From the NCBI RefSeq assembly GCF_026571515.1, contig NW_026860662.1, positions 1-64,000 on the forward strand: 64,000 nucleotides of DNA, written 5' to 3'. The DNA comes from Ruditapes philippinarum (lineage: Eukaryota). Shown here piece by piece: positions 1 to 39,286 of the stretch. Made by a program: the position numbers and the translations under genes. Numbering within the stretch: position 1 is the first letter of the stretch; each line of letters begins with the position of its first letter. Under the pieces are notes generated by a model. That model was not told the origin of the DNA and did not search any database. It worked only from the letters and a program-made list of their open reading frames with translations.

Positions 1-120
1 AACGAAAGACATAGTTTTTCATTAGTTGAGTAGAAATGAAAACAAATATTACATCTGATTTGAATAACTGAATTGCAAAATATTTTTTATTTATAAATGA
101 GGAAACAAATAAAACCGTAC

Positions 121-3100
121 CGATGCAATAGTTCTTCTTTTTCCTTTCCTGCTGTGCGTAACTCATTCGTTAGCTGTTTTATTTTGCCGTTAGCTTTAGC
201 TAACGTTGTCCCGTAGTTGTCCAATTTCTTTTGTAATTCATCACGTTTAGCTTGGAGAGCTGGATGAATTTCCTCATATTTTTGTAAACGTTTTATTTCA
301 CTTGCTTGCTCTCCTTGTACTTTTTTGTTTTGCATGATTTCAAAATTATACTGATTTGTATTTTCATGACCTCTTGCTTATTTCTGAAAGTAAAAAAAAC
401 GTCTACAGTCGCTGATCTAACCACATTGAAACTAATTATTGAACGATTAATTAAAGCAATGAATGTTTAAAACTAAAGCATTTGGAACCCTGTTACTTTT
501 ACCTTTGTTACACTGATCACTGACGTTAATTTAAAGAAGATGCATATCTATAATTTGATATTAACATGTCATAGTTTACTTTTCACCAGCCTCCCTGCTT
601 TATTTGAAATGTTTATGCTTTCGGCAGCTATGTTTAGAAAACTAAAATATTTGAGTGCGCTGACCTAGTGTTTCCAGATATTTAAAAAAAGTATTATATA
701 CAAAAGCAATAAAACTCACATTACATTCACCCTTTTGTGCTTGGGAACTTTACATTTTAATGGTTTTCAAAAGTGCTACTCGCTTTATTCTTATCCGTTA
801 TTTCTCTACATTTTCCTACTCAAAATCTATACTTTAAAACCATTTATAAGTGGCATAATTTTGAAATATAAGGATTAGATTCTGCTCAAGCCGCTGAAAA
901 CAACAGAATCAATGCAGCTGGGCAACATCAAAATCTTACTCCCCAACCCGTCATCTGTGAATGGTATTAATACTAAATAACGATTTTTTGAACGGATGTC
1001 GTATATTCATCATCATCCCGGAGTTAATACGGATTGAAAGCAGTTTTACCGCGTGACTTCAGAATCTTTGTATAATGAGAAGCGAAGGCATTTGATAAAT
1101 GTACTTAATTGACATCAAATGGAAAAATATAATCAACTTCAGTAAATTATGATTGGCAATATGTTTGACAATCAGAATTGATTTAAGAATGTCAGTTGTC
1201 AACCAGTTATAAGCAACTCGACCTAAAACCTTCAATAGGTTTAAAGTTCGTACTTTTGGTTTCTAAGACAGTGTAAATAAGAATTCCTAAAGAAAGCCCA
1301 ATAAGGAAAAGATTGAAAAAAATGTTACAGGCTCAGTTTCATTGAGCCTGTCCATGGACGGTTCTTCAAGTGCAAACCACCGTCCACGCCCCCAGCACAA
1401 GCCCAAGCAGAATTCAACATTAAAATATGATAAACAAGATCAACAAGGAAAGGTGGCGTTCAAACCCAACCCAGTACCCGACCCAGTAACAAGAGCCATT
1501 AAAGAGCCAAGAGCCATTTAAAACATTAAAAGGTAAAAACTTAATATAAGTATATAAATAATGCAGTGCAAATGAATTTACATTTTCGTGGTTCTTACCC
1601 GAAGTTTGACAAAGGTTTGCCATTTACCAGATAATACTATATTTAATACAATACAATTCAATATACATGTTATCTGAGACAAATTATACTAATGTTTTTC
1701 GCTGCTGAAACTTACATTTCGCATTGACTTTCCAAAGTTGCAACCGCCTGATTCTTCGCCGTTATTTCTCGTTCTTTCTTACATAGTTTCTCTTCAAGTT
1801 TGTGTATCCTAAAATAGAATATTATTTCCAGATAGCATCATTTTACCATCAAAGAGTAACTCTTATATATGTTGCTTTGCAAACTTCGAGGGATCCTCTC
1901 CCGTGCTTTTAATATATGTAACAAAATGTTTAGTTTTCCCATAATAATGAATAAGCTTTCAAGTGTTAATCACGAAATACCCATTTAAATTTAGTAAAAT
2001 AGGAAATGTTATTCTTGCTGGATGTATTAGTTAATATTTGTCATTAAAAGAATAAGGAAGCCTATCCATTTTTAAATGTTGTATCATATTTAATTGTACT
2101 ATTACAACATCGTACCTTTCATTATTTGTTTTATATATTTCTTCAAGTTTCTCATTCTCCCTGAAACATGTAGAGTTGTTGAGTACATTAATGCAATAAA
2201 AACATTACGAAAAACATATATTTGGAAATCAAAGCTAGACAAGGGCTTATAGAATTATGCATTATACTATTTTTATATTTAAATCTGCTTAAGCATGCCA
2301 ATTTTTATCAATAGGTACGTTTATGAGCTTTATATTTAAATAAATTTGATGATCGGATAATGTGTCACCTACCAAACACATTACAACTCATGAGAGAAAA
2401 TGAGAATAGTGTACCATTTAACTGTGTGTGCTACTTAAACTTACATTTTGCATTGCTTTTCCAAAGCGGCAATCACATTGCTTTTCTCCTCTACATCTTT
2501 ATCTTTCTCATTCAGTGTTTTTTCAAGTTTTTGTATCCTAAAATGAGAATAATTATTTCCGAATAACATCATTTTCTAAATCAAAGAGTAAAACATATAT
2601 CTGTTTCTTGACAAACTTCAAGATGTCCCCTCCTAAGCATGTATTATATGTCAATATTGGATTGGTAATCTCATCGTATTGAACATGGTTTCAAACATAA
2701 GTCAATTTAACCCGTCGCTCTCAATAAAGTAACACTTTCACTGTTTTTTGTTTGTTTTTTATTGTTTTTTTTTTAGTTATAAGTTCATGTTTTCCTTACA
2801 ATTTTTTAAATAAATTTGATAGCCTTTTATTGTTTTAAAGTTTTATCATTTCTAATACTTTGTACTATGCCAAGATCGTACCTTTCATTACTTGTTTTAC
2901 ATATTTGCTCAAGTTTGTCACTCTCCCTGAAACATGTAGAATTGTTGAGTACATTAATGCAATAACAATATTATTACATACTTATGTTGAGAAATCGAAG
3001 CTAAACATGAGCTTTCTGAATTTTATATTACACTATTTGAATATCTGAATCTGCTTAGGCCGATGCTTTGCGACACAGATTATAGCACGTTATTACCACT

Positions 3101-6100
3101 GTTCTATTGAACAAACCAAATATTATATTATAATTTTTAATTACCAACATTTATTTAGAAAAGATACACGTGAGTTCAGTTATTGAAAGGTTTAATACAG
3201 TATGCCATGTCTTATTTAGTCACATGTAAAATGTCATCCTCTCTTACAATACTTGTTTTTTTGCTATTTATATCACTGGAAAATCAAACATTCACTATGA
3301 AATCACTAGAAGCGAACAGATACATTATATGTTCAAAGTACGTTATGATATAAAGATTCTTCCGACGTTGTCAAAAAAAATGATGTTAATCACTTTTTTG
3401 CTTTATTCAAGTTAAATCAAGTTATCAATCGCGTATCTTTGTGAGATTGATTATGGCTATTCATGTTTATAACATGATGTCTGTAACCTTAGGTACAATC
3501 TGTATTCCATCTTTTTTTCCCCAAATTTCACTAGCAAGGCTAAAGAAGTTTTATATCTATAACGCGATATGAGTATACCAATTTTCATTTGCATCAATAT
3601 GTCAATATAGCATGTTTATAAATAAATAAATTTGAAGAACCAGATTATTACTATAATACTAAACACATTACGATTCACTGTTAGTGCTGCTTAAACTTAC
3701 ATTTTGCATTGCTTTTCCAAAGCGGCAATCACATTGCTTTTCTCCTCTACATCTTTATCTTTCTCATTAAGTGATTCTTTAAGTTCTTGTATCCTAAAAT
3801 AAATAGAGGATATTGAATGAGTGTAAGTTAAATACTAAATTTATTGAACGAGTTGAATAAAATTATATTATGCGAGCCTCTGGCGAGCATCATATTATTT
3901 TATTCAACGAGTTCAAAAATTCAGTAATGAACTTACACGAATTTAATATTCTATTTATCATATACCCAACATAAAGACCGTTTAAAGTGAAATAAGAGTC
4001 ATCTTCCATTGATGTGCCTATAGTATAACACTAGCATTTAGCGCGTCTTTACACTATGTTTGTATAACGCTAATGACGTCACGTCAAAATATACGCACGG
4101 CCGTGCAATACCATTTTTACGGAGTCGCAAAATCGGCACGGGTGTGTGATAAAAATAGATATATTCCAGACAGCATCATTTGTAATATAAAAGAATAAAA
4201 CACAAAAATATGTTGCTTAACAAACTTCAAGATGCCCCCTCCTATGCAAGCATTATATATGTCAATATCAGATTGTTTATCTCATTATAATGAGCATGCT
4301 TTCAAACAGAAGACAGTTTTACTTCCAGTTGAGTAACACTTAAATATTTGTGTTGGGTTCATTTACTTATACTATCCTCAGAGTTCTTAATATTAATTAG
4401 GAAGACCATTAATGTTAAAATATTGTATCATAATTTATTGTACCATGCCAACATCGTACTTTTCGTTATTTGTTTTACATTTTTCCTCAAGTTTCGCACA
4501 CTCCCGGAAACATGTAGAATTGTTGAATACATAAATGCAATAACAACATTACTACATATATATATTGGGAAATCATAGCTAACCATGAGCTTTCTGGATT
4601 ATCTATTACGTTATTTTTTTTATATTTAAGTCCGCTTATGACGCAAACAATTACCGCTGTCCTAATTAAACCGAGCATGGAAATGTTATCATTTCGGCCA
4701 TTCTTGAATGCACTATTATTGTAAACCAGTATAAAAGATCATCCTTTTCATCCAATATTCCAATATAATGCGATATGAACTGGCCATTTTTATTTCATCA
4801 ATAAGTTTGTGTTGATGATTTAATACATTTTAAACATGCAGCATCTTTATAAAGAGTGCTTAAAATGTTTAAAAGACTGGATGTCGTGAGACTAGATACT
4901 TATATAAGTTTAATATACAATAATCAGTGCATTTCATTTTTCATTGTATGTTGTGTAAATAATATTATTCGACTTTGTTATTTTTTGCTGGTTAAACTTA
5001 CAATTTGCATTGGTTTTCCAAAGCGACAATCACTTCATTCTTCTCTATTATATCTCTATCTTTCTCATTCAGTTTTTCTTCAAGTTCTTGTGTACTAAAA
5101 TTAGAAAATAATTTGACATTAAAAATATCGTGAATTACAGTCAACTTATTTTTGAAAAACATGTATGACAATGGGCCAGGAATCAATTATAGAATATCGA
5201 TTGCAAATCAATGTCAACATAATCTGAAAAATAAGTGATACGGTCCGTACTTTCTTTTTCGAAAAACGCAAAACTTATTATATAAATAACGTATTTTACT
5301 TGTATAGCTAAGAGTGTATGTAAATGGACTTGTTGCATTTGTTATAAACGCAAACTAACTCAAAAACACCGATATCATGATAATGATTGTTTACATGTCT
5401 AGTTTTCATACTATCATGTTCGATGTCCTTACCAAAAGAGTGCCTGAAAAGGGCCGACGGTCAGATACTTACTGCTATATTTTGAAGCTCATTATAAACG
5501 TAAAATGAGAACAGTATAGCAATCATCTGTTTTCTGTACTGAAACTTACATTTTGCATTGATTTTCCAAAGAATGAATCGCCTTAGTCTTCTCCGTTGTA
5601 TTTTGATCTTTTTCATTCAGTTGCTCTTCAAGTTCTTGTATACTAAAATGAAAGAATTATTTCTATTTAACATCATGTTAAACAATAAAGGGTAAAATTC
5701 TGTTGAAACCAATAAAAACAGCATTTATTTATTTATTTCTGGTGTTGTAAAACCTTCAAAATTTCCTCTTATGTGCTTTTAATATGTGTGTGTTTAATAC
5801 TCTTAATAAGTCTCTTTCAATTTAGTAACACTAGAACCTGTTAGTCCTGATATTGCTGTTATTAATTTCTTTCAAAGTGTTAAAGATAACTTTTGTGTTT
5901 GAGGCCGATTTATATTGAATTGTTTCTTCTTCTTTTTTTCTACAGATCTAATTGTAGTATGATAACGCCTTACCGTTTATCAGTTGTGTTACGTATTTGC
6001 TCAAGTTTCTCACTCACCCTGAAACATGTACAATGGTGGAGTAAATCGTTGCAATAACAATATTACTGCATTATAACCGGGTAAAGGCTAAGTTAAATCT

Positions 6101-9100
6101 AAGTTTAATGAATTAAAAATTCCACTATTCTAATATTCAAATCTGCTTGAACAGTGTTATGCACGCGGACTGTAGCATGAAATTACCGCTGCCTTTATTG
6201 AAGAAGATTAAACATCCCGAGGTTATAATGTCATAATAAAATGTTATAATATTTTGGAGAAAATAGGTTTACGTGACTTCAAATATTTAAATGTTTTACA
6301 CAATATACCATCTATAATTTAGTAACATGTAATAAATGTCATTTACATTACAGCACATGTTTACAGTGGCACAAAGGTGACATGTGTGTGTGTTTTTATT
6401 TATCTCGTGCGCACGATATACTATGTCGTGACCACGAGTTACTAAGTCGTGGCCACGAGATAGCTAAGTCGTGGCCACGAGATACTTTGTTGTGACCACG
6501 AGTTACTTATTCGTGGCCACGAGATGGCTAAGTCGTGGCCACGAGATACTATGTCGTGGCCAAGAGTCACTTATTCGTGGCCACGAGATACTATGTCGTG
6601 GCCAGGAGTTACTAAGTCGTGGCCACGATATAAATAACCAATCAGATTACACCATTTCTATGATTTTTTTTAATTAACTAGACATGTGCTATAGTACAAG
6701 GATGCCCCTATTTCACCAGCCTGTAAAAGTGCCATTTATACAACTTATTGACTGGTCAATAATTGTACATTTAGCGTCATTGTGACCCTGATTTTTCCCC
6801 AATGACCTCGAAATCATAAGATGTCATCTACTGATCAGGTGCAATGATTTTTCTGGATTTTATAAACTATGGCTTATCCCTTCTAAATTATTCATTAGTC
6901 TAGGATTTTACATGAAGTGTCATGGTTACCTTGACACTTGACGTCAAACATCCTTATAGGCTATCTACAGTCCCTTCCTAACAAAATAAACCAGGACTTA
7001 TTCCGTCTCATGTTATCGTATTAACAAGGTTAACAGGTCATAGTATGTACAAAGTGACCAATTCGATCACAAAATTGTCTCAACAAAGGGCTTTAGTCAA
7101 AATTATTGTCTGATGGGCTTTGGAAGGTGACTTTCTAATATGGTCCTAAAGAAAAAGGCAAAATGAATATCTTCAGTATTTTCAAAGATTATTGTTGCAT
7201 GTAAAAGTAAGTTGTTCAGTTAAAAGAAATCATAATATATTTAGTGTATTCTGATTGGTTAATTATCTCGTGCGCACGACTTAGTTATCTCGTTTCCACG
7301 ACTTAGTAACTCGTGGCCACGACTTAATTATCTCGTGCGCATGACTTAGTAACTCTGGGCCACGACATAGTATCTCGTGGCCACGACTTAGCTATTTCGT
7401 GTCCACGACTTAGTAACTCCTGGCCACGACTTAGTATCTCGTGGCCACGATTAAGCTTTGTCATGGCCACGACTTAGTAACTCGTTGCCACGACATAGTA
7501 TCTCGTGGTCACGACTTAGCTATCTCGTGGCCACGACTTAGTAACTCGTGGCCACGACATAGTATCTCGTGCGCACGAGATAAATTAAAACACACACACA
7601 TATCACCTGTGTGCCACCGTACTTGTTCGTTGCAATTTCTATCACTAAAATAGTGTTACAAATTTATCATTCACTTGTGGTGCTAGGCTGTTGTAAGCTC
7701 GGTTTGATTTTGCCTGTTCAAAACTTACATTTTGAATTGCTCTTCTAATTTCTCAATTACCGAATTGTTATCCTTTATTTCCCTATCTTTCTTAATCAAA
7801 TTTTCCTGGAGATGTTGTTTGCTAAAATAAAAAAAACAAACCAGTGCATACAAACATGTAGAGAACGACCAATGGTATATGACACTATGTTATATCCTAA
7901 GCTATAAATGAGTCTTTTTTAAAGATAAAGCGATTAAAATTTAGAGGAAAATTTATTTCTACAATATACCTATATAATTTAACTATACTCTAGCATTATC
8001 ATATAATTGATTTTCTCCAGAAAAAAATATATAATTTTATGTTAATTTAACATTGACTAGTTTATGCCTACCAATACCAACGTTCGAAAACATCACATAA
8101 AGAAAGGATAAGTTGATATATTATAAAAGCAGATTACTTAAAAAAATAAAGTTAATGTTTATGGTGATATAATTGAAAATACAACGGCGATTATACTTAT
8201 ACTTACCTATTTCGCAGGTCTGTAATCTCATTATTTAATGATGAAATAAACCAACACACTGTCCTTGGGCCACACGCTGATTTTCTATAAGCCCTGTGAC
8301 AGAAAGTATTCGAGTATTAGTCTAAGAGCTTTCATTTAACCGTTGTTTAAATTCTCCGAAGGCTATGATAATTATGTATATAAGTTCGTTAAAAATCTAA
8401 TGTAAAAGGGAGATATGAGTGTTTTGTTACAATGATTTAAATTTTGTTGTTATCTGAATGACTTATTTCTTAAAAAAATAAATAAAAAATAAAATGATTA
8501 CCCCGAGTAACATTGATCACATTCACATTCGTCAGAGACGCTGTCGACATGAAAATAAAATATTAAATTATAAATAGGAGTCGTTTGAATATAGAAACTG
8601 ACATGTAACATAACATAAATGGCCGTGGGTATCCGATTATGACATTGGACGTGGTTTAAAAAAACTTTTAATCAACAAGATTGTTTTTAGGAACGTAAAT
8701 GTATACACAGGCAAATGAATGGCCAAAATATTATATTGTTTTAATTTACTCAAATCGCACTAACAACGGGGGTATTATAATGTCCAGGATATTTGTATGT
8801 ATATAAATGATATATGATTTTGTTTTAGATGTGATGTAAAGTCCGTTTGTTAAATTCAAATAAAATCATACAGAAGCGCCAAATTATGATAAAGCAAATT
8901 GTACCACAAGAACAAACCTCTGAAGTTTCAAGAACAAACATGGCAGATTAAGTTTGAATTAAATGTAGGTATTTTTTCTTAATGGGTAATATTTCGCTCC
9001 CATAAGCCACTGCAATATTTAGAGTTAAATCTAACTGTTCTTACCTGACCAACGTGGGTGAGAAATCTTTGCACCTACAACTGTAATCATTTAGAGGACA

Positions 9101-9387
9101 TTAACAAAATATTAGATTACAAATTCAGAAAGAAGAAATAAAAGTTTGCCTGTGCCTTCCTTTAAACTCAAATTATTAACATATTTAACGGAAACAGACA
9201 CATACATGGTCACTTGATCTTTTTATGAAACATACTCTAAATTGTTCTGGAAATAAACTTCATCTTCTTCTTTTTCTTCGCTCGACCATGTAAATGAGTT
9301 GTCTGATGTCGATAGATTTGAAGATAATGACTCTGATGATGTATTTAGCTCTTTGGAAGTTGATAATTTCAAGTACAAATATGCCAT
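121..9387 (-). CDS. Multi-exon coiled-coil protein gene (3' end beyond window); possibly MIEAP/SPATA18 C-terminal-domain family
   Basis: All exons are AG/GT-bounded with phase-2 junctions. Exons: 9394-9236 (ATG 9387; MAYLYLKLSTSKELNTSSES...EDEVYFQNNLE), 9074-9045 (CKDFSPTLV), 8293-8207 (AYRKSACGPRTVCWFISSLNNEITDLRN), six 93-nt exons 7821-7729, 5642-5550, 5094-5002, 3793-3701, 2537-2445, 1808-1716, then 383-121 (NKQEVMK..MQNKKVQ..KEKEELLHR). The last exon is 263 nt, 1 nt short of symmetric. The spliced frame is open except at that A-run. The family assignment is inference only. Confidence 0.8.
754..831 (-). pseudogene. Degenerate seventh copy of the 93-nt exon (pseudoexon)
   Basis: Remnant KCREITDKNKASSTFENH* aligns with EREITAKNQAVATLESQC. 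It is shortened to ~78 nt, has stops, and its donor is weakened to gtaaag. Confidence 0.6.
1277..1420. repeat. Dispersed repeat with short hairpins (copy at 59406-59550; partial copies at 44080-44120 and 58986-59010)
   Basis: Direct sequence similarity agaat(t/c)c(c/t)aaagaaagcccaa...gcagaattcaacatt; internal stem acaggctca...tgagcctgt. Confidence 0.7.
1716..1808 (-). CDS. 93-nt repeat exon 6 (IHKLEEKLCKKEREITAKNQAVATLESQCE)
   Basis: ttttag|...|gtaagt, 93 nt, phase 2-2. Confidence 0.85.
2445..2537 (-). CDS. 93-nt repeat exon 5 (IQKLEKTLNEKDKDVEEKSNVIAALEKQCK)
   Basis: ttttag|...|gtaagt, 93 nt, phase 2-2. Confidence 0.85.
3701..3793 (-). CDS. 93-nt repeat exon 4 (IQELKESLNEKDKDVEEKSNVIAALEKQCK)
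   Basis: ttttag|...|gtaagt, 93 nt, phase 2-2. Confidence 0.85.
3801..4153. mobile_element. Non-autonomous hairpin element (Helentron/HINE-like) inserted at the acceptor tract of repeat exon 4
   Basis: ~150-nt imperfect palindrome at 3803-3955 and an inverted pair tttatcatataccc / gggtgtgtgataaa. It interrupts the aaaatagaatatt..ccaga intron motif that is contiguous in sister units. Confidence 0.65.
5002..5094 (-). CDS. 93-nt repeat exon 3 (TQELEEKLNEKDRDIIEKNEVIVALENQCK)
   Basis: ttttag|...|gtaagt, 93 nt; overlaps ORF 4998..5186. Confidence 0.85.
5550..5642 (-). CDS. 93-nt repeat exon 2 (IQELEEQLNEKDQNTTEKTKAIHSLENQCK)
   Basis: ttttag|...|gtaagt, 93 nt, phase 2-2. Confidence 0.85.
6362..7621. 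mobile_element. Foldback-type non-autonomous DNA transposon, IS3EU-like termini
   Basis: Termini TACAGTGGCACA...TGTGCCACCGTA. Long TIR arms are built of ~21-bp units around the palindrome TCGTGGCCACGA. 6-bp flanks catgtt / cttgtt match 5/6. Confidence 0.75.
7729..7821 (-). CDS. 93-nt repeat exon 1 (KQHLQENLIKKDREIKDNNSVIEKLEEQFK)
   Basis: ttttag|...|gtaagt boundaries, 93 nt, phase 2-2. Confidence 0.85.
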
Positions 9388-10895: not shown

Positions 10896-11507
10896 ATATA
10901 CTATCAATTCTATTAATGCATTAAATAACATAATAAGAAGAAATAACTTTGTTCATTGCTAGAACTGAAGTTTAATATATAAACAATGAATGATGATGAC
11001 CACAGTGTAGATGAAACTGGTGTTTAGATAATAATTATGATGATAATACTTCTGACAAGTGTAAGATATTAAAAGAACTTTTAATATCGTAGGTTTCTAT
11101 GATTTCCTGTTTGGAATAATTCATATAATCACTTCCCGTCTTGCCCTGTCCTGTTTTGTGCCCTGCTGGACTCCTTTCAGGTGGTCCTGTGTGAGGGTTG
11201 CGTTCATTGAATTCCAACCTTTCTTATTGATCTAATTTCATTTTCTTTTATATTTTAAAGTTCTAATTTACTTCCTTTAAAAAAACACTATTTAAAAGAG
11301 ACACAATATGAATATATAACCGGTGACTTATTAGACTATTAGAAACGAAAGTGAAGTGGATATCAACAAACAGATTGGAAACTACAATTCTACAATGATT
11401 TATAAAGATAATGATATACATGTATTAAAGTTAATTCAAGATAAACAAGATATTAATGATTTAATGATAAAATGATGGTGGTGGTTATGGTGATAACAAA
11501 TATAATA

Positions 11508-16825: not shown

Positions 16826-19800
16826 TTAAATAGTTTTTAATTTTTGTTTTGCAATTTCCCCTGCCTGTCTGTTTGATACTTTATCTGGTTTCTTTTCACT
16901 TTCTCACTGTCGTATCCCCTTTGTCATCAATAAATGTGAATTTTTTAATCACATTCAAGAGATTAAGTAAGTTCAAAGGGGTCTGCCTATCAGTCTCTTC
17001 GAAGTAGCTGTACTTTAGCAAGATCGAATTTCTCCATTCATTACTTGTTCCTAACTCCACAATGCGACCAATTTTCAACTTCTCTAGAAAATTTTCCTTT
17101 ATTTGCACAAACATCACCCCACACTCGGTATTTTTGTGCGTAAATTTCCGTCCTGATTTTAATTGAGTTCTGAAGGCGCTTCTTAAACTCACAGGTTACT
17201 ATCACGCCCAAATTTCCAGAACTCATTCAGTAATCTTTGTCCTTTTTTCCAAATCTTTAACAGTTTTTCAGTGAACTTTCGAACAGCGTAAATAGTTTCA
17301 TCACCATCGTCGTGCTCAAGTGGTACACCGGTGTTGGATTTAATGTTAAAAATGCCCAGTGTCAAAGGGATGTTAGAAGAAAATCATTTCTTCTTAAATA
17401 AGGTCTCGAATTGACAACATTTCCACTTCCTTTATAGTGTTGAAGTTGAATCTTGCAAGAAGTTTTCTCCCTATGATTTTTAAGTCGCACTTTTAACTAG
17501 CCCCAAACTAAACGTTCATAGAATCCCCCCATCCGGGAGATTAACTCGACAATGAAATCCAACAATGCCTTTCGAAGCTACGTATTGACATTACTTCATT
17601 ACTTTGCCACTACGTTTTTCCATATGATGATTTGATGACTTGCTTGCAAGTTTAACCTGAGCAGTGTTATCAAAAACAATCTCATAGGGAGTGTTTCTTT
17701 GTGAAATGAATCGTTGCAGAACACATCAGGAATTCTTCGTGTAGCTTAAATCCTGAATCTACTTCAAATGAATAGCCCGTGTTGTCATACACGAAAAAAC
17801 CATATCCAGACTTTTCTTTACCATTGATGTTTTATTGTTAAGGTCCAAGAAAATCTACCAGTCGTGAAAATGCACTTACTTTTGTACTCTTGAACTGGGA
17901 AGTTGGCATAACAGCATTTTTGTATGGGCCTCCATTCGTAGACGCGACACACATTACACTTATTTAATGCTTGCTTTGGACCGCTGAACGACCGCGAGTA
18001 TCAGTATGTTTGTCTTGTCTGGATAGCGTATGAATGTCCATAATGCATACACTCTTTATGTGCCCTTTGAATCACTAGTTCAGTTTTAATCTTTTCTTTT
18101 TGGGTAGAAGAATATGGTTGTATTGCTCCTTCTGATAAGCAAGAGTCCCTAAACGCCCAGAAAACGCAATAAATCCATTTTGTCATAACCAGCCGAGTTT
18201 CTTGGTAGTCCGGACGCGCCTTATTTCTTTTTGAATTATTCTATAGGTCCTTTATTATAAATGTTCCTTTGGAACATAAACTATCCACAAATTTTTCAGC
18301 TTTCGTAAGTCGTCACAAGTTAGAATTTTGCATCATCTTTTACAATTTTTGAGTTTCCTAATGAACTTTAACACAAAGCTGAACACGCAACAATTTTGTC
18401 AACGTTTAATTTCTTTGATGTCAATTCCACAAGTGGATACAATATCATGTTTGTTTTGCTTTCATTTTCTTCGACAGCAATTGGAAACACATAGGTTCTT
18501 TTTCATCTTTTTTCTTGCTTTAATTCATGGTCAATAATATTGTCGTGATTATTATTCCAGTTTCGTGGACTTTCACAACACCCAAGTGGACCGTTCCACC
18601 AAAAAGAATTATCCTTTAAATCATTCACGCTGACAACCTCGAGTGCAACGTCAAAGCTGGATTATCTTTTGTGTTACATGAGCAAAAAATCACCACAATT
18701 ATGCTTTTTGATTTCTTTAACTCTAGTTTTCACAAATAGGGAAGTTGCTTTTTTACTATTAATCAAGTCTAATGCTACCTGAGAGTCGTCCAAAGGTTAT
18801 TCGTGATGACATTTCTTATCCATTAACTGTGTCTTCCACAAAAGTTTCAAACACCTAAAAACAACCTGATTAGCACTGCCATTAGCTCTAATCTTGGAAT
18901 AGTCATTTTCTTGACTGGAGGCAAGATGTGTTTTGGCAAAGATCAAGTTTTGATTTCTATAAGTTACATTTTCTTGCTGTAGATAGATTGCAGTGGCATA
19001 AGCCTTTGACGAAGCGGTCACAAAAACAAAGTAAATTGTATTTTACATATTTGTCTTGAGAAACGATACTCCGGCGTATTTTGATGTCCAGATATCAACC
19101 TAAGTTGATCGCTGATAAATGACCACTTATCGACGCACATGTTCGTCTGTTATCTTTGTATCCCAGTCGAAACACTTTCCAAACATTTCTTGAAGCAAAC
19201 ATTTTTCCATGAAGAATGACTGGTGACACAAGAGCCATGGGGTCAAATATTGATGCTATTCCTTTCAGTACGATTTCGTTTTGTCACTAATGAACGGTTT
19301 ATATTCGAAACATACAGATTTTACTGACAGAATATCTTGTTTTATGTCCAAACATGTCCTAGAACCTTAGGTTTCAAGTTCAGTGGATCTGTCAACCTCT
19401 AAGAATAAGACTGGTTTACTTTTTCACTACTTGAACTCCACTCCCGAAAATTCATTGAGGCGTCTTTAAAACATGCTTTTTGCTTCTTTATACAAGTCTA
19501 CAGCTTGTTCATCGCTGGATGCTCCGGTTATAATATTGTCCATATAAATGTTTCATGTTTCAGCTGTTCTGATAGTTTAGTGTCATAAGCAATTCAAATG
19601 AGCCTCAATCGTTGCAACTGAGAAGGAAAAGGGCTTGAAATAATCGCCAAACGGTACTCTACAGAAAACGATGAAATTTCGATGTTTGTTTGGAAACAGT
19701 GATGGTCTTTTTGTGTCTTTAATCCAAAAGAATCTGGTACATCGCGTTCTGAGGTCTTGTAGACCAAACTTGAAGAAACGCTTTTCGATGTCCACAACCA

Positions 19801-22425
19801 TTGCCACTCTAATGTAAAAGAAATCTCATAAGTAGCCCACACAAGTCCTTGAGTAAAACAGGACCTCGAAAAAGACACTCATTTCAAATCTTGATGATTC
19901 TGGTGATATTTTTGCCGACGCATCATAAACAATCTAAGCTTTGTTGTTGACTTTTGTGGGCGTGATAACCGCATGATGAGGAATATAGTGATGCATTAAT
20001 TCCTTTGCCTTTCCCCGAGTCTTGAACCTTCTCAATAACTCCTTTTGACAGTTGGTCTTTTATAACATTGTTGTATTTTTCTAGCAGGTCAGGTTTTGTT
20101 TTCTAGTTTTTCAAACACGACCTAAAGTCGTCCAATTGCAAGTCCTTTGTTTTCGGGTAAATCTGGATTTTCTTCTTTCCATGGCCAGGTAACACTGTAT
20201 CTATACCATCCTGAAAAGGTGAGGGTGCTTTTAAACTTCTCATTGACAACTCATCATCATTCATTTTGTTCTTTGTCACAAATGCCTTTAGCCTCTATGT
20301 TCCAAAAATCCTCTAGATCTTGAATCGAGTTTTCACAAGAATCGATACCACAGAATATCCCTTTGTTTACAGTTGAATTGTTAACACTTCCGTGTGTGAG
20401 AATGAGCATGTTTGGTTCCTCTTTCTCTTTTATTTCTGAGTATGACCTTCCTGTAAGAATCCAACCGAGTTTAGAACACATCAGATACAATCCGGGCTGA
20501 ACTTCAATCTTTTGTTGAAGTACAATGTCTAGGTAATGATCATTGCCGATCAAAACTTCTATTTGAGATGTTTCATTTTTGTCGGGAAACGTATCAGCTA
20601 GATTCCAAATTTTCTGCAATATCTCTGAATTCTTTCAGGACTTGTTTATTTCAGTGACTTTCTATGTATTGCTTCCACTTATCACTGGTACAATGTTTGC
20701 TTTAAGACATAGCTTTTGCCCATTTCTTAACTATAAATTGATGGAAGTCACGTGTGTCTTTATCACTCTAGCATCTTTACCGCCAAATGTAAACACATGT
20801 AACTCTTCGACATACTGCTTCTTTAGTCTTAATTTGTCAGCTAGTGACTGTGTGATATATGTTCTCTGAGAGCCACAGTCAAGAAGAATTCTTGTCTTGA
20901 CACTTTCGTTAGATTTTGGGTTTTGAATATCAGTTAGCGCCGTCTGCATAAACACAAATTCTCCGTGAGACAACATAGCATTTTCTTCATTTTCTCCATC
21001 GGTGAGATATTATTGATTTGCTTCGTTGCACTCATCTGTGATTCTTCTTGTGTTGTTTGTTTATATTTCTTAGGACACAGACTTCTATGATGTCTATTGA
21101 ATTGATTACAGTACACACACTTTTTATTTGATTTGCATTCACGAATTCCATGACCATCCATTAGGCAACGATAACATCTACCTCTGATTCTGTTTTTCCG
21201 TTCTTCCAATGTTGCGAATCGAGTACACATGTCACTCCAATGATTCTCTGCACAATATCTACACACTGGCTTGTTATGAACAGTTTCATGGGCCACAAAT
21301 GTGTCGGCACTGCTACGGAATTTCTGAAAATGATGTTGATAATGAAAATCTTTATTCCAAGTATTCTTTGGCATTGCTCCGTCTTTCTTTATTCCCCTGT
21401 TCACTGAATTAAATTGACCTCCATGCACTCTATCACTCTTTCCTTTGTCAGACTTTTCACAAGCGCCAATGTATCTCGTAGGTGATCACGCAAACTGTCA
21501 ACAGTCCACTCGTTTTTTGCTCCTTTTATTATTTCCAGCTGCCGGAGCACATCCTCTGGCAGCTTTGTGCGAAGTCATTGAAACAAAAACGTGTTGATTC
21601 ACATTTTCCTTTAGCATCTCAAGACTGCGTAAGGTTTTTTCAACTTTATCCAAAAAAATCGCAGGCTTTCAACCTTTGTAGTTGGTGTGAATGAACATTA
21701 AGCATTTCTTTGTAATGAAGATCAATAATCTCTTGTTTGTTGCCGTACCTCTCTCGGAGAATTCCGACTGCAATAGAATAATTGTCGTTGGTACGCGCAA
21801 GTCCAGCTAATGCTCTCTTCGCTTCTCCGCCTAGTTTGCTTAGCAAATAATTAAACTTTTCTATGCTGGATAGTTTAGTGTTTCTGTGCACAATGGATTC
21901 AAAAGAGTCCCAAAATGCCCACAAGTTTATTTTGTTTCCGTAAAACATGTCCAAATCAAGTTTTGGTAATTTAACTGCACTTGTATTTTTTCTGTCCGTT
22001 TGCATCTGCACCATCATTTGACGTTGCTGTTCAATTTGTGTTATCATCATCTTTTGCATTTGTTCTTGATATGTCTCTTTTTCTTTCTCATCATGTTTCA
22101 ATGGTACAATTGACTCACAAAATTGGTCTAAATCAATGATACAATTTTCTACCTCGAAATTCAAATTGCAATCCTCATCTACAATCTGTTGCAAATATTC
22201 CGAATCACTTTTAGTTAAACGTTCTGATAGTTTATCCATTTGACTCATCAATTTCTCAGAATAGGATTTCAATAGACTTTTACACCTTTGAACATCTTTT
22301 AAAAACTCAATTTCTGACACTACACTCACCTCACATTTCAGAAGGTCGTTTGCTTTCTGAAGCTCAGTTATCACCACTTTTCTGTACTTCGTTCTCACTC
22401 CTTTCAATGAAGCAACAGTTGGCAT
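16826..22425 (-). pseudogene. BEL/Pao gag-pol polyprotein (many frameshifts)
   Basis: Gag DUF1759-like KLPKLDL..FWDSFESIVH; three Zn knuckles (CRYC..H...C, CYRC....H....C, CVYC....HH..LC); protease LLDCGSQRTYI; RT IYMDNII; RNase H ASSKAYATAIY; integrase HHCC and C-terminal IGRIVEL. Confidence 0.9.
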
Positions 22426-22569
22426 TTTGAATATATATTCTGGTTGCACAAACACAATTTTATCAGAACACTTAATCGAGTAAAGAAATAATCTACTTTT
22501 GAAATGTACTAAACACCTTTTGTCACTTCTCAATTTTTATTTTCACTTCACACTTTACATCCACTTTAT

Positions 22570-30100: not shown

Positions 30101-31508
30101 TGATTATGTATGTATGGTGGACGTGGTACATTTTCGATGATATATGAATGGTGGGCGTGGTACACTTTCGATGATATATGTATGGTGGGCGTGGTATATG
30201 TTTCGATGATATATGTATGATGGCGTGTTACATGTTTAAATGATATATGCATGTTGGGCGTGGTACATGTTTAAATGATATATGTATGTTGGGCGTGCAC
30301 GGTACATGTTTCGATGATATAATGTATAATAGGCGCGGTACATGTTTCGATGATATTTTTATGACAAGCGCGGTGCACGTTTCAATGATATATGCATGAT
30401 GGGCGTGGTACATGGTTCGATAATATATGCATGATGGACGTGGTACAAGTTGCAATGATATATGCATGCCGGACATACATGTTTCAATGATATATGTACG
30501 ATATGCGTGGTGCATGTTTCAATGATATATATATGTATGCCGTACATGATGGTACATGTTTCAATGATATATGTCAATGGGCGTGGTAAGACGCAGTTTT
30601 TATGTGCTAGTCTGCATGTATAGAATAATGAGCTCGTTACAGGGTGATCCTAATGCCAAATCCGGTACCATCTTATTGCGTTCATGATATAAAGGAAGCG
30701 ATAACTTGTTCTCTTTACCAAACACTGTACATGTTTTCTGGTCCGTAATAATGCAGAGTGTTATGTTATCAGTTAGGGCCATAGTTTTGATATGTTTGCC
30801 GGACGCGATACATGTTTCCAGTTACGATAATGATTTGTGGGGGATCTTTGCCGACGTGAAACATGGTTTGTTCATTGTAAGCGCTATTATAGAAACAAAA
30901 TGTTTACTTACCCCAAATTAGTTTAAACAGATTATTTTAGTTCGATTGTGTAGCAATACGTGAAAATTTTCTGACGGGGGTTTGAACCCACGCGGTCGGC
31001 AGTGCTTCGAATACTAGCCCAAACCGCCAATCACTTAGCGACGACGTCACTCACAACCCGTAATTGTTTATTCCAATCTTTTATATGGAAAGTACATTTT
31101 GTAATCATATCAGCATTATTTTTGTACATATACATGTAAGTCGAAAGCGTTGCTGGTAAAATTCAATGTTCACTTTATAATAGGATTTTTGTTTTAGTAC
31201 TAAAAAACAATGGTAATTAAAATGTAGCTCGTATTAAATTCTTTGACAACTCTTGTTCTGTAAACATCATGATCGTTTATTTCATATTAACCTGATATCA
31301 CGTAACAAAATACAAGTCGCGACAGATTGATTTTTGAAGTAATTACTGCTTTCAAGTAAACCGCGTGTGTTATATTACACGTGAAATATCCTTGTCGCGT
31401 AGAAACATGGCTAGTTCAAAACTTTAGTAATTAATACCAGTCAGGTTTTTAAAATAGAAATAAAGCTCGTCAAAATGGCGGAAATGAAAGATGCAGTTAC
31501 GCTTTCAG

Positions 31509-31541
<33 letters not shown>

Positions 31542-34336
31542 GTGTTGTAATTCATAAAAAGTCCGTGCATGTATGATTTGATTATAGATTTATTAATATC
31601 GTTCCAACTGGTTTTTTATCGAAAAATATAACTTTAAATATAATTGATAAAAATATAATAATAATTAAGCTAGAAGAGTCGTTAGTTCCCTAAATATGGT
31701 ACAAATGGTTGAATTAACGGGACTTTTGTTATTTGTAGGTTACAATGTGTCGGCAGACTCTCTAGGCAAATTTTGTGGCAGAGATAACCCGTCGTTTGTC
31801 AGCACGGGCAACTACATGGCTGTCTCATTCAAGTCGGATTATAGTCTACCAGCAAAAGGATTTAAGGCACGCTACAAGTCAGGTCCAAGATGTAAGATTT
31901 ATCATTTTAATATTAACTTTTGTTAGGTTTATGCACAATTCAATGGTAACAACGCCCCGCCATTAGGAAAGCGAAGGAAAATAGCTAAGTTGCACACGCT
32001 TGCAGGGTCAATTGTTTTGTTTTATGTCCAGGTAGCAGAAAGTGTTCTCAGTGTGAAAGCAGAGGTTTTATCATCTCCCCTTTAACAGGGGTTTGATATC
32101 AAAGTACAGCCAATTTCCCGTGTATTTGATAGCCGCCGTTACAATTGACTCGTGTATTATACAAATGAGCGGAGTCAAGACAAAACCAACATAATGGGTT
32201 TGCGACCAGCATGGATCCAGACCAGCCTGCGTATCCGCGCAGTCTGATCAGGATCCATGCTGTTCGCTTACCAATTCTATTACAAGTATAGAAACTGATA
32301 GCGAACAGCATGGATCCTGATCAGACTGCGCGGATGCGCAGGCTGGTCTCGATCCATGCTGGTCGCAAACCCATTATGTTGGTTTTGTCGTGACGCGGCT
32401 CAAATGTGAAGTAAAATTTAACTGTTGGCTAGGTTTTTACTCGCAGTCATGATTTTACCACGATGACATGATAAATGTGACGAGTGTTTTGGTCTGAATT
32501 ACATGACTTTAATTGGTGTTGTTAAAAAGTGTTCGAAATCAAGATTGAAGCTAATGACAAATTCGAGTCGGCTTATGAGATATTTGATCCACGTGGTACA
32601 AGTGGCTTTCTTGTAGTTTATGCTTACACAAGATCGAAGTACTGGAGTTTGTGTAACTTTGATCTCCAGCAAGTAAGGTGGAGTTGATCCTCGGTGTTGC
32701 ATTAAGTGTGTTACACCAGGCTAGCCAAAATTCCATATGCCCCTTAAACAGCAATGTAATGACATATATATTTGCACATAAATAAGAGATCCAAATAAGA
32801 GTGCATATTCGTGGACGCGATTTAGAATTCAAATCTTTTTGTATTTTCATTTAAGATTATATTGGTATTTTTATACAATGTGCTGTTTTGATTAATTAGA
32901 TTTTGTTAATCATACATTATGTGTATAACATCTACACAATATAGTTTATAGCATTCTCAACAATAATAATGTACTTTAAACTTCCACCGTTTCAATGATT
33001 TCAAGCAAGGAAATAATTAAAAAAATAATTTGCTTATCTTATGACTTCAACGGATAAAGCATTTTAGAGTTCAAAACCTAATCCAACCGTCAGTTATTGT
33101 ATAAAGTAGAATTGCAAGAGAAAACATTGAAAATGATAACATTGTCAAATTCGAATAATATACACAAATACTGTTCCAAACTAACCTAAATTGCTCACAA
33201 TAAAACCAAAAGAGCAGATTTGAATTATTTTCTCCGCTTATGTTAGTTTAAGCTTTTTTAAGTGTTAAACTATTGATATTTATATAACATTGTTTTGTAT
33301 ATGAGTTTTATGGAAACATTTTACAATAATAAATGACTGGACTATAACCATTTGACAAGTTTATTTATCATTTGGAAAAGAAGAAAGAAATTTTATTGTA
33401 AGGCATAATATAAAGACGGCATAACATACTGATAGTATTATTGTAATTTCAGCAAGTCTACTTGACAAGGAAGATGATGAACAACAAGTCAATATGCTGG
33501 CCATTGTTGGTGCTTCTATCGGCTCTGTTGTTTTTATCATTGTTGTAATGACAATGGTATATACCTATATACAGGCCAAGAAAGCGAAAGAGATGCGGAG
33601 GAACCCCCATTTACACCGTGGTATGGCACGTGTCGAGCCATTTAGTTTTGGAGGTGGGTGGAGTTACCTTGACGGACCGGCTCCTCCAGCTTACGGGGAG
33701 ATTTATTCATCCCCAATGTCACCCCCACCACAGTATAGTGAAATAGATCCAAATGTGAACCCCTCTGAACGTCTACCAGGTCGCCGGGAATATATGGCTG
33801 ATAATCAGGCAGCTGAAACAGAACAAACTCAAGGAAATCAACGGGAGAGAACAGATACGATTGCAAACACACATTTTATGATGACAAGTAGCTTACGTAA
33901 TATACAAGCAATCACTCATTCAGCCGGCAGACGGCCAATATCTGTAGCTCAAAGTACAACTGATTCCTTACAAACTTTAAACCCGGCTTTACTCAATACT
34001 GCCGGAAATAGTTCGGGTACCAATGACAATAATGCTGGTATCAATTTGCCAGGCCAAACTGATAGTCTTCCTTCAGCAGTTGCACCGATTTCAACTACTT
34101 CCTCTGATAGAGTTGGGGTCACATCTAACATTTGTCAAAATAACACACATACTCAATCTCAAAGGGAAACAACTGATGGCTTGTCTCAGTCCGCTCAAGA
34201 TAGCACAGTTACCTCCCGTAATCTATCGGCGGATGGATTTGTCTCCCCTGGACCTAACGTGCAAGACATCGATGATAATATCTCAGTTGTATCAGAAATG
34301 TCACTTCCACCTTTACCTGTACAGGATACTAACTAG
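27102..34336 (+). CDS. CUB-domain type-I membrane protein, paralog 1 (exon 2 frameshifted as assembled)
   Basis: Exons: 27102-27183 (..GLHVLFILATFIHS, signal-like), 28848-28967 (degenerate, ..NYPAG..), 29840-29964 (NQQCEWRIEA..CVYDHGEVFD), 31739-31891 (GYN..GKFCG..FKSDYS..GFKARY..GPR), 33453-34336 (SLLDKEDDE, TM, KKAK, PPAY, PPQY, S/T/Q/N-rich tail). Intron phases are 1/2/1/1, as in the paralogs. Confidence 0.8.
27270..28380. repeat. 42-bp minisatellite (intron 1 of CUB paralog 1)
   Basis: Unit ~cataacgtaatggagtgcgcatacaa(t/a)gaaa(t/c)gatttatac(c/g), period 42, decaying to the right. Confidence 0.9.
29400..29730. repeat. 19-bp minisatellite
   Basis: Unit ggtacatattgaggtatgt. Confidence 0.9.
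30026..30590. repeat. 34-bp minisatellite
   Basis: Unit acattttcgatgatatatgaatggtgggcgtggt. Confidence 0.9.
31508..31540. repeat. (GTT)n microsatellite
   Basis: About 11 units. Confidence 0.95.
32167..32401. mobile_element. Palindromic MITE, Sola2-like (GAG...CTC, 4-bp TSD aaat)
   Basis: Whole-length inverted repeat flanked by aaat. A second copy lies at 42992-43226 and a half copy at 28130-28168. Confidence 0.8.
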
Positions 34337-36639
34337 AGTGATTCAATGTTTATGTTTAATTCAGCGAGATCCTAGTTTAGACAGAAGCAAGATAAGCTTT
34401 GTTTTATATGGCGATGATGCCGCCCTTTTGCATCTGATACCATTTTAGAAAATTTTAATTTATCTTAAACACGGTATATTGAAGCAATTACATTTTTTTT
34501 TATCATCATTTTAAAGTGAAATAATTAACAAACAGACACTTTTCATGTCATTTTAAGAAGTTGTATTTCTATATATAAAGGTTCATTAATTAAGAAGTTG
34601 TATTTTTATATAAAGGTGAATCAAATATATCAGTACCAATTGATATATTACACTGGAATCAATACAGTGTACAAATTTTTGTGAATGTTATTGTGCCCAT
34701 TATTTTCATTTAAACATTTTTTATAATTTTATTGTTCTGTAAATTTTCTTCGCGTGCTAATCATCTAACGTGCTCCAAATCTAATAATGAAATATGATTA
34801 CAAGATAGTATCCTTCCTTCAGAGTCAGATTTGTTATAGCTGGTACCTGTAAGCGATATTAGATCGTTCTGTCTCATCATTAAGATATTTTGCAGACACT
34901 GTATTTTAAACCGCGTTTTATAATTTTTCTATGGATTGAAATTGCAAGTTTGTATATTCTTAAACCAGTTATGTGCCTTTATTTGTTATCATATTTTTAC
35001 TTATTTCTACTATATAATCAAAGTTTATAGATTTGCATAGTTCTAAAGTGACTGACGTATTGATACATGTTATATTAGTTCTTACACTTGTTAAATGTTT
35101 TCAAGAAGTTTTACATGTTGTTATTTAGTATTATATATGGGGCTTTAAAATAATGTTTCATAAATGTAAGATTCAGAGTTGGTGTAAAGTATTAAGCTTT
35201 TAAGAAATCTACTAGCGTCTTCCGAGTGCTAAGATTTGACTTTTGTTTAAATATTTTATCATTATTTTAAGAGAATTTAGTGAGACGTTAATATTTTAAA
35301 AAGAAATTTAAAAAGCTATGAAGAAATTTAAGTTGAGCACTACCTTTATAAGAAATTTTAATTGCGTATACGAATGTATAAGAAAATGTTTTAATGTTTA
35401 TACAGTTTTTAAGGTTGAAGTTAATATGACGAAATGTGCTTTTAATGTTTCAGATAACATTGTTATAGATGCTCTATGTTTTTAATATTTATTATGTTTT
35501 TATAATAACTCAAGTGTATGATGCATTGTTATGTTGAAAATAAATCAAAATGATATAATATATTCATCATGCTATTTTGTCTTTATATGTGAAGGTGAAG
35601 TTTGGCTGTTACATTAATGCTGGACACTTATTTTTCTCGGGCAACAGATTTTCTGATTAGACTGCAGCAGTATTACCGCATTTGATATATTATATTACTG
35701 CCTGCACCTGAATTATAACACAAGCTAATAATGTCGCCATTAACGACAATAGTATCTATATTGTTACTGAAACATTGTATACAGTTGGTGTAGGTAATCA
35801 AAAACATCTTATGAAAAGAGTTTTGGCTGAAATGATCTAAAAGTAACATGCTATATAACTAAAACCAAAACAAACAGTTTTACGTTGATGAGGCGCATTT
35901 ATTTGGGTAACATGGAATCAGTAAATGCAATGATTCATTATACTGCTTTTACAAAACCTATTGAGATAGCAAATAGCTAAATTCATTCATTTTGATAATA
36001 AAGGACACAAAACATATGTAGTCTGCTGCTATAATCACATATTATCTATATGTGATAAGCTTGATTTTAATTTGTGATAACACGCATCACTGACAAGAGT
36101 ATATAAAATTTGTCGTAATGAAGTTTAAATATTCTGTCAGAAAAACAGAAATTCGAATCGAATATCAACGTGCAAAAAGATATAACGTAATGCACAGCCT
36201 CCATGCCATACGTTTTTTGAAATAATTGAAATAAGTCAAACCACAAAATGATATGAGGAGTAAGAGCATTTGTTCCAAGGAAAGATATGGTTATTTCAAT
36301 TAACTAATTAGTGACGTGAACGCGACAAAAGTACCAAACGAACATGTATTTTCTGCATGGTCACTATTTTTCTTTTTTTTTCTTTTACCTTAAGTAAAAC
36401 TGAATTAGTTATTTCTAAAGTTACAGATAATAAAAGTTTTGGCTCGGTGAGATCTGAGATTTTTTATATATTTTTTTATTTGTAACGAATATGGGGTTCT
36501 GAATATAGTCACAATATTGAATTAGTTTGTAAAGACTTTTGTCGAAAACTTTAATTTGTAAAAATAACAACCCAAAAACTACAAATTCAGCTATGGTTAA
36601 GGGAGGATATGGTAGATTGACCTTAAGTATTTCGTATAT

Positions 36640-37130
36640 GACAAACTGCATAAGATGTTTTGAAACCTTTTGACCATACCTATATCTAGATATCTAAAAC
36701 AGTGTTATTTAATGCTGAATTCTCTAGACAAAGTAGCTCGAATATGTTGGGTCACTAAAGTAAAACATGTTCTGTGTAGGTATGGTTTTGAATTTGTTTG
36801 GATACCTCAGGAAATTGGTGGCATCAAAATGTTTCTCGAATCCTTTAAACAGAGACTTATTGACTTGTGTACTTCAACAATGGCAAGAACATATAACGAA
36901 TTCTAGTCAGTGTTTCCACTTTAATAAATTTAAATATAGAATGATCGATACCTATTAGTAGAAATACCATTTAAACATAGATAGACGTTTTGTAATGATA
37001 GTTGTTACAACCATAAACTAGGCAGGCACAATAATAGCCTATCAACGTCTGTCTCCAATTTCTCCTTAAAGATAACATATATAGATTGTGACTTCCATGC
37101 TTTCTTAATATGTAAAAATGCAATCATATT
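36640..37130 (+). mobile_element. Decayed LINE ORF2 3' fragment
   Basis: Frameshifted ORFs QCYLML..WVTKVKHVLCRYGFEFVW..Q..FKQRLID / QQWQEHI, resembling the post-RT region of L2/CR1-type LINEs. Confidence 0.65.
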
Positions 37131-37194
37131 CGCGAACATTAGTTATTCATTTTATATATTTGCGAAAAAGAACTGCATGGTCTCTATGTATTAA

Positions 37195-37490
37195 TTTATA
37201 ATACTGCACGTTTGTAACGTCACTTTTCATTCGATAATCGTGACGTTTATATTATTAGTTATAAAGTTTTAAATACACGGCTGCTATCAATTTATGAAGC
37301 AAACTCACTTTTTTCATTAAAAAATGATGCTTGCTCAATTACAAATTCGTTATAAAGATTTTTGACATGTTATAAGGCCATATATAAACAGTTGTTTGAA
37401 ATATAACCCTCGACTAGCGGTTCGGGTTATATTTACAAACAACTGTTTATATAGGGCCATATAACCTGTCGAAAATCTTTATAACTAATC
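37195..37490. mobile_element. Hairpin-bearing non-autonomous element (relatives at ~53370-53930)
   Basis: Palindrome ttataaagatttttgacatgttata...tataacctgtcgaaaatctttataa. Shares tactgcacgtttgt..cacttttcatt with 53637-53667. Confidence 0.6.
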
Positions 37491-38059
37491 ATGTACAAGT
37501 GACATAACCACAATAAAGAAGCTTGTGTTTTATATATATTTATTAACGGAATATATAAACAGTCATAAATATTGTTTTGTGACTATATTGGTAAAATTTT
37601 TGTTTGTATACTATGTATTGTTTTTTTGCTGAATACCTAAGAAAAAAAAAATATTTGACTTCGGACCTGTGGCGGCAACGTGCACTATTCCTCAGTTCTA
37701 AAGGTTGCCTTGAACAGCCTATATGTGCGCAGACACCTACCCCGCTTCTATTTCTTTCAGATGTAACATAAACATTCCAATTAAATATATAAATATTTGC
37801 AATTGCATAGTTCTAGATACATACCTTTTTTCTATAGCTCATTATCAATATTACAAAAAAATGCTGTACACTCAAGATTATAACACCAGTTTTTACATCT
37901 TGTAATACCAACTGAATGAGAAAACTTTATAGATTCTCCTAGACCTTGTCATCTTACACAATATGTGCCACTTATTATCTGTCGACTGAAAGTTGGTTGC
38001 CAGCCCAAATCGCCAGTAAGAGCTGATGACAGAAAAAAATTATATGTGCATAGGAAAAG

Positions 38060-39209: not shown

Positions 39210-39234
39210 ATATTATTATTATTATTATTATTTC

Positions 39235-39285
<51 letters not shown>
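39210..39285. repeat. (TTA)n microsatellite
   Basis: About 24 units with one interruption. Confidence 0.95.

Positions 39286-39286
<1 letters not shown>

What the first reader, a model, noticed from the sequence alone, without database searches (positions are those of the whole stretch)
754..7821. Cassette array of frame-symmetric 93-nt exons: a length-tunable coiled-coil rod
Seen: six intact exons of exactly 93 nt, all phase 2-2 with ttttag/gtaagt sites, plus one dead copy. Each encodes a 31-aa module (consensus IQELEExLxEKDxxIxEKNxxIxxLExQCK). The surrounding intron sequence is co-duplicated: the atcgtacctttcatt..tgaaacatgtaga block recurs at ~2110, 2875, 4450 and 5970. Every coding junction in the gene is phase 2. 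Inference: any subset of modules could be skipped or duplicated without a frameshift, giving isoforms or alleles with stepwise rod length (a molecular ruler) and birth-and-death turnover of exons. The ORF track misses almost all of this.
Basis: partly seen in the sequence, partly recalled or inferred. Interest (0 to 1): 0.75.

Follow-up and report, generated by a model that had tools for sequence, protein, structure and literature searches.

The report
Clam coiled-coil gene, two-exon repeat
A Manila clam gene encodes a predicted helical rod made of repeated pairs of small exons (93 and 45 bases), and a second copy in the same genome has fewer working repeats; this is likely ordinary growth and loss by exon duplication in what is probably one of the many MIEAP-like genes of bivalves, with no splicing evidence for a length-tuning device.

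Summary
The six 93-nt phase 2-2 exons and the dead copy are real. So the repeat unit is 93+45 nt (46 aa). The gene is Ruditapes philippinarum XP_060551352.1, whose model stops after the third module. A second copy (contig C7644) has four intact modules; one unit was lost by unequal crossover, one donor is dead, and two window exons show gene conversion. Birth and death of exons between copies is therefore supported. Regulated skipping is not: four RNA runs gave background depth and no exon-exon joint among those listed. The last exon before the contig end resembles the exon preceding the domain in clam MIEAP-like genes (rank 1 of 477); the domain itself is off the contig. The scan found similar exon-built rods before in sharks, rays and a rotifer. 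Verdict: real, tidy, ordinary mechanism.

The parts
9236..9387 (-). First coding exon (ATG at 9387; Ser/acid-rich, 50 aa), ends in phase 2
   Evidence: Matches aa 1-50 of RefSeq XP_060551352.1; three homologues on C7644
8502..8540 (-). 39-nt Cys/acidic exon, phase 2-2
   Evidence: In the RefSeq model
8207..8293 (-). 87-nt exon, start of the helix, phase 2-2
7729..7821 (-). 93-nt module A1
   Evidence: in RefSeq model
5974..6018 (-).
   Evidence: in RefSeq model
5550..5642 (-). 93-nt module A2; its counterpart on C7644 has a dead donor (AT for GT)
5002..5094 (-). 93-nt module A3; the RefSeq model of this copy ends here by reading into the intron
4460..4504 (-). 45-nt exon B3, frame open but acceptor changed to CCG (likely dead)
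3804..4153 (.). Dispersed repeat inserted about 10 nt upstream of the A4 acceptor
   Evidence: Break in alignment with the sister unit; hundreds-fold RNA depth with loose ends; match on C9148
3701..3793 (-). 93-nt module A4; unit missing from C7644
2882..2926 (-). 45-nt exon B4
   Evidence: 96% identical to the exon used in XP_060602310.1
2445..2537 (-). 93-nt module A5; 95% identical to A4 while flanking introns are about 80% (conversion tract)
2116..2160 (-). 45-nt exon B5
1716..1808 (-). 93-nt module A6
754..846 (-). Dead module A7 (indels, stop, no acceptor), dead in both genomic copies; 5' limit approximate
121..383 (-). Last exon on the contig: coiled-coil-like frame ending in a split Arg codon at a phase-2 donor; out of frame from its strong acceptor (263 nt), in frame from a weak AAG acceptor at 372
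6360..7622 (.). MITE-like dispersed repeat with inverted ends in the A1-B1 intron; absent from C7644

Best explanation
This is a clam gene whose predicted coiled-coil region is encoded by tandem copies of a 93-nt plus 45-nt exon pair, all in phase 2, and the number of working copies differs between two genomic copies, likely through unequal crossover, gene conversion and splice-site decay; the freedom to skip exons is likely a by-product of that growth, and the gene likely belongs to the bivalve-expanded MIEAP-like family. Shown: exon anatomy, selection against indels, the two-exon unit, the different module counts, the chimeric unit and the conversion tract. Predicted: one long helix (AlphaFold2) with a heptad pattern; each 46-aa pair would add about 7 nm of rod (0.149 nm per residue, recalled). 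Inferred: all intact exons are joined in one mRNA, and the rod serves as an oligomerising spacer in front of a MIEAP-like domain that lies beyond the contig end. The window copy may be decaying in its 3' half.
For: Exon anatomy and phases. Two RefSeq models use the 45-nt exon: XP_060551352.1 (this copy) and XP_060602310.1 (C7644). 0 indels in 555 exon bases against 36 in 1314 intron bases, p 6e-6; among the four window 45-nt copies 0 in 270 against 16 in 935, p 0.03. dN/dS 0.63 between copies (41 and 13 differences) and 0.57 among the six window modules. Heptad a positions 1, 8, 15, 22, 29 hydrophobic in the 11 module copies, and the next a position (36) is Leu in 6 of 6 copies of the 45-nt exon. 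AlphaFold2 on the C7644 model: helices 136-224 and 229-350, pLDDT mostly above 90 in the second. Modules pair by position between copies in the tree. C7644 unit follows A5-B4 on one side (74:10 informative sites) and A4-B3 on the other (7:16), p 1e-7; A4 and A5 exons are homogenised against their introns (10:3 against 11:68), p 9e-6. MIEAP-like link: PF16026 has 143 matches in this genome; in those genes a coiled-coil exon ending in a split Arg precedes the domain exon; the end of exon 121-383 ranks 1 of 477 donor-like sites (score 9.0; leave-one-out range of the 14 training ends -9.2 to 9.1; null mean -9.5); the only other genome-wide candidate for its last 50 aa is such an exon on C14196 (E 9.7); 3 of 16 MIEAP-like loci examined have duplicated charged exon-plus-intron units, one with 96-nt phase 2-2 exons.
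Against: No splice junction of this gene was seen: in four RNA runs (4-12% of each read) depth in the exon bins free of repeats was 0 to about 0.8, no higher than intron bins. dN/dS near 0.6 rests on few sites and is weak purifying selection. The RefSeq model of this copy stops after A3; B3 has a dead acceptor, a repeat sits beside the A4 acceptor, and the last exon is out of frame from its strong acceptor. The MIEAP domain is not in the window; Pfam finds nothing above cut-off; the null set held only 11 charged, coiled-coil-like ends, and the C14196 hit is not significant alone. A first, stricter scan for duplicated exon pairs in the 16 loci found none. I did not check whether the RefSeq models rest on RNA.
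Confidence: 0.68

Rival explanations
1. Regulated cassette array: cells skip subsets of modules to make rods of stepwise length.
For: All 12 intact exons after or including the first join in phase 2 with no junction stop; two places already lack a working 45-nt exon between modules (A2-A3, A3-A4), so both join types are likely tolerated. Chicken BG genes show alternative splicing of such exons (PMC4046983, passages).
Against: No exon-exon joint among the listed joints and only background depth in four runs. Splice sites of the 93-nt exons are uniform and near consensus. Frame symmetry is required for any exon duplication to survive, so it does not predict regulated skipping (inference).
Confidence: 0.1
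2. The window copy is a decaying paralog (pseudogene or truncated 201-aa gene); its 3' modules are no longer used.
For: RefSeq ends the protein after A3; B3 acceptor dead, repeat inserted beside A4, A7 dead, last exon out of frame from the strong acceptor; near-zero RNA depth in four runs; duplicated 5' exons and a partial further copy on C7644.
Against: A4, B4, A5, B5, A6 all keep length, frame and both splice sites; the C7644 model uses their counterparts; a one-base assembly error could explain the last exon (not tested).
Confidence: 0.15
3. The exons belong to a lineage-specific orphan coiled-coil gene unrelated to MIEAP-like genes; the exon-end likeness is convergence of charged helices.
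For: No relative outside the two RefSeq models in three protein searches or among 1.84 billion representatives apart from four short metagenome peptides; no continuation contig found.
Against: as above.
Confidence: 0.07

Closest known systems
Chicken BG genes (butyrophilin family; PMC4046983, passages read)
   Same: Presumed coiled-coil built from many small duplicated exons; exon number differs between paralogs (13 to 36); read-through and alternative splicing reported.
   Different: BG exons are one heptad (21 or 24 nt) in a transmembrane Ig protein; here the unit is two exons (31+15 aa), no signal peptide or transmembrane segment is seen in the models, and there is no sequence relation shown.
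Bivalve-expanded MIEAP (SPATA18)-like genes, Pfam PF16026 (expansion: PMC8382680, passages)
   Same: Coiled-coil exon with a split-Arg phase-2 donor before the domain exon; duplicated coiled-coil exon-plus-intron units in 3 of 16 clam loci examined.
   Different: The domain is not on this contig; the array here is longer (six modules) than the two-copy repeats seen in the 16 loci.
Repeat expansion by duplication of multi-exon blocks, e.g. nebulin four-exon block (PMC1553488, passages); tandem exon duplication in general (PMC9013439, passages)
   Same: A block of exons with introns is duplicated as a unit.
   Different: Nebulin is an actin-binding repeat protein; many tandem duplicated exons are mutually exclusive, which the RefSeq models here do not suggest (they join several modules).
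RefSeq labels 'myosin heavy chain, clone 203-like' (XP_060551352.1) and 'RUN and FYVE domain-containing protein 2-like' (XP_060602310.1)
   Same: They are this gene and its second copy.
   Different: No myosin, RUN or FYVE family was reported by Pfam for the C7644 model at E up to 1; the names likely reflect coiled-coil likeness only.

Membership tests
MIEAP-like (PF16026) bivalve genes | PF16026 domain in the protein | tested here: inconclusive
   No hit in the available part and none listed on C9149 or C7644, but both copies run off the contig start before where the domain would lie.
MIEAP-like (PF16026) bivalve genes | Coiled-coil exon ending in a split Arg (phase 2) with a conserved end, just before the domain exon | tested here: met
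   Rank 1 of 477 donor-like sites against 14 training ends; pattern derived here from clam loci, not from a paper.
MIEAP-like (PF16026) bivalve genes | Role in mitochondrial quality control | not testable with these tools
   Function is known for vertebrate Mieap (as cited in PMC8382680 and PMC11036304 passages); not shown for these paralogs in what I read.
Tandem exon-duplication array | Homologous exons with homologous flanking intron, symmetric phase | tested here: met
Tandem exon-duplication array | Copy number differs between gene copies | tested here: met
   6 against 4 intact 93-nt exons, 3 against 2 intact 45-nt exons; allele or paralog not settled.
Alternatively spliced cassette array (molecular ruler) | Skipping junctions in RNA | tested here: inconclusive
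   Depth too low in four runs; no exon-exon joint among 15 listed, 184 not shown.
Coiled coil | Long helix with hydrophobic a/d heptad positions | tested here: met
   Predicted helix and heptad table; two d positions per module are Lys. Oligomeric state not established.
Chicken BG / butyrophilin | Ig-V domain, transmembrane segment, 21-nt heptad exons | tested here: not met
   Exons are 93 and 45 nt; no Ig family in Pfam scan. Works alike, not a member.

The most novel reading that the evidence does not exclude
Clam MIEAP-like proteins carry a length-variable rod whose 93-nt and 45-nt exons are skipped or lost independently, so that cells or alleles vary both the length of the rod and its heptad breaks (a 46-aa pair gives a 4-residue break, a bare 31-aa module a 3-residue break), tuning reach or partner choice in an expanded stress or immune family.
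Probability: 0.1. Interest if true: 0.6.

Novelty: new member of a known kind. Interest (0 to 1): 0.3.

Why it matters
It is a clear small case of exon birth and death caught between two gene copies (crossover point, conversion tract, dead splice sites), and it points to coiled-coil length as a variable in the little-studied bivalve MIEAP-like expansion. It also corrects two misleading RefSeq names and a probably truncated gene model. The mechanism itself is well known.

Tried and rejected
No RNA holder listed by the run search; not used as evidence. Homodimer prediction of residues 229-351 of the C7644 model: no answer, score 0.27 against a mark of 0.32; not evidence either way. Protein searches for longer relatives of the last exon and of XP_060551352.1 found none. 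ESM Atlas gave only generic coiled-coil leads. Two metagenome scans for the DNA behind four module-like peptides found nothing. Search for the 3' continuation: no second copy of 60-520 or 1-130; neighbouring-numbered contigs C9148 and C7643 (whole) and the first 3 kb of C9150 and C7645 show no MIEAP-like motif and no overlap; three MIEAP-like genes near contig starts show no overlap. A by-eye 36-nt exon at 9045-9080 was rejected: it lies in a decayed dispersed repeat, is broken in at least one C7644 copy, has altered donors in all three, and is absent from RefSeq. A by-eye 38-nt exon near 1600-1637 was rejected: stop in the phase-2 frame. My first count of 46 nt for B5 was a miscount, corrected. 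Paper searches for 'exon duplication + symmetric exons + coiled-coil + tandem' and 'tandem exon duplication + protein repeats + intron phase' returned 0 papers; I did not search for this gene's accession. Places upstream of 8440 were not examined in RNA.
Full report
Observation. The minus strand holds six exons of exactly 93 nt (7729-7821, 5550-5642, 5002-5094, 3701-3793, 2445-2537, 1716-1808), each between a tag acceptor and a gtaagt donor and open in phase 2-2. A nucleotide profile finds these six, five on contig C7644 and one decayed copy on each contig, and nothing else in the 64-kb window or the 52.7-kb contig. The window is the start of contig G000:C9149, so the gene runs off the assembly at position 1.

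The 'intron block' is an exon. A profile of 10 module copies hit one strong protein among 1.84 billion representatives (E 5e-57): RefSeq XP_060602310.1 of Ruditapes philippinarum, on the contig of C7644's length. It has 15 extra residues between modules. The RefSeq model of the window's own gene, XP_060551352.1 (201 aa), uses three upstream exons, A1, the 45-nt exon, A2 and A3, and then stops in the intron. The repeat unit is therefore 93+45 nt, 46 aa. I did not see what evidence the RefSeq models rest on.

Selection and structure. Between the two genomic copies, seven exon pairs have 0 indels in 555 aligned bases and their flanks 36 in 1314 (p 6e-6); identity is 90% against 86%. dN/dS is about 0.6, on few sites. 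Heptad a positions are hydrophobic through the module and the next one, in the 45-nt exon, is Leu in 6 of 6 copies; two d positions are Lys. By arithmetic a pair adds six heptads plus four residues and a bare module four heptads plus three (the stutter and stammer of coiled-coil usage; terms recalled). AlphaFold2 without an alignment gives a disordered first 135 residues and helix from 136 to 350 with one break at a patched, probably mis-modelled junction.

Turnover. C7644 has 4 intact 93-nt exons and 2 intact 45-nt exons; the window has 6 and 3. Modules pair by position in a tree. C7644's A2 has lost its donor, and it has no B1. Its middle unit follows the window's A5-B4 on one side and A4-B3 on the other (74:10 against 7:16 informative sites, p 1e-7), the mark of a unit lost by unequal crossover. 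The window's A4 and A5 exons are 95% alike while their introns are about 80% alike (10:3 against 11:68 sites, p 9e-6), the mark of gene conversion. The seventh module is dead in both copies. The copies are 79-91% identical and share only 955 of 49,800 bases beyond window 14,200, which favours paralogs, but a divergent haplotype is not excluded. Four short peptides from unnamed metagenome contigs match the module; one is two residues from A3, three are further variants, and the one I searched has at best 76% identity in this assembly, hinting at more module types elsewhere; their organism is unknown.

Expression. Four RNA runs of the same species label were laid on 1-8440, 4-12% of each run. 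Depth piled on three intronic repeats. Bins holding A6, A5, A3, A2 or the 87-nt exon had 0 to about 0.8 reads per strand, no more than intron bins; bins with A4 and A1 are confounded by repeats. None of the 15 listed joints joins two exons of the gene; 184 were not shown. This says the gene is silent or very low in those samples; it neither shows nor excludes skipping.

Family. The last exon on the contig ends in a charged helix and a split Arg codon. I recalled this as the lead-in to bivalve MIEAP-like domains and tested it. PF16026 has 143 matches in the genome, in line with the reported bivalve expansion (PMC8382680, passages). Of 24 stretches of such loci searched, 16 gave a domain exon with an upstream charged split-Arg donor (14 after collapsing near-identical ones); scored against them, our exon end ranks 1 of 477 donor-like sites in 226 kb, near the top of the leave-one-out range. 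Only 11 of the 477 were charged helices, so the control is thin. The only other genome-wide candidate for its last 50 residues is this same exon of a MIEAP-like gene on C14196, at a non-significant E 9.7 (E 6e-5 within 20 loci). Of 20 upstream stretches fetched, 16 had a recognisable domain exon, and 3 of these 16 carry duplicated charged exon-plus-intron units; a stricter first scan found none. The domain itself was not found for this gene. From its strong acceptor the last exon is out of frame: assembly error, use of a weak acceptor or decay cannot be told apart here.

Reading. Duplicating a segment that spans a phase-2 intron yields only phase 2-2 exons, and only such duplicates keep the frame, so uniform phase is expected without any regulated skipping (inference). 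The design works like the heptad-exon tails of chicken BG genes (PMC4046983, passages) and multi-exon block duplications (PMC1553488, passages). This scan noted similar exon-built rods in other genomes (unchecked notes) and nothing near this place or on clam MIEAP-like genes. I read no supplements. Verdict: real gene, two-exon repeat, turnover between copies shown, tunable ruler unproven; new member of a known kind, interest 0.3.

Noticed in passing
window 8696-9166: Intron holds decayed pieces of a ~520-bp dispersed element (40 scored matches, 116 candidates); it supplies cryptic splice sites that mimic a 36-nt exon.
   Followed up: partly
G000:C7644:4600-8300 and 30200-44500: The two 5' coding exons are tandemly duplicated in the C7644 copy (RefSeq joins both), and a further partial 5' copy without modules lies further along the contig.
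   Followed up: partly
window 1274-1500 and 11189-11233: Short dispersed repeat with two hairpin-like inverted arms (seen by eye); abundant in RNA runs as loose-ended reads.
   Followed up: no
window 17000-22536, minus strand: Broken retrotransposon remains; ORF 21646-22536 hits Pfam DUF1759; Pao/BEL type by recall.
   Followed up: partly
window 33425-34336, 42845-43417, 45950-46747, 61983-62264, plus strand: Two CUB-domain exons (Pfam) and two long exons that begin with a hydrophobic stretch: probably tandem CUB-domain membrane protein genes.
   Followed up: partly
window 50755-56065, plus strand: Fragmented non-LTR retrotransposon; 55661-56065 hits RVT_1 weakly (E 3e-5, under cut-off).
   Followed up: partly
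L095, L099, L100 (G000:C12953, C14196, C6959): MIEAP-like genes with their own tandem duplicated coiled-coil exon-plus-intron units; L100 has a 96-nt phase 2-2 pair.
   Followed up: partly
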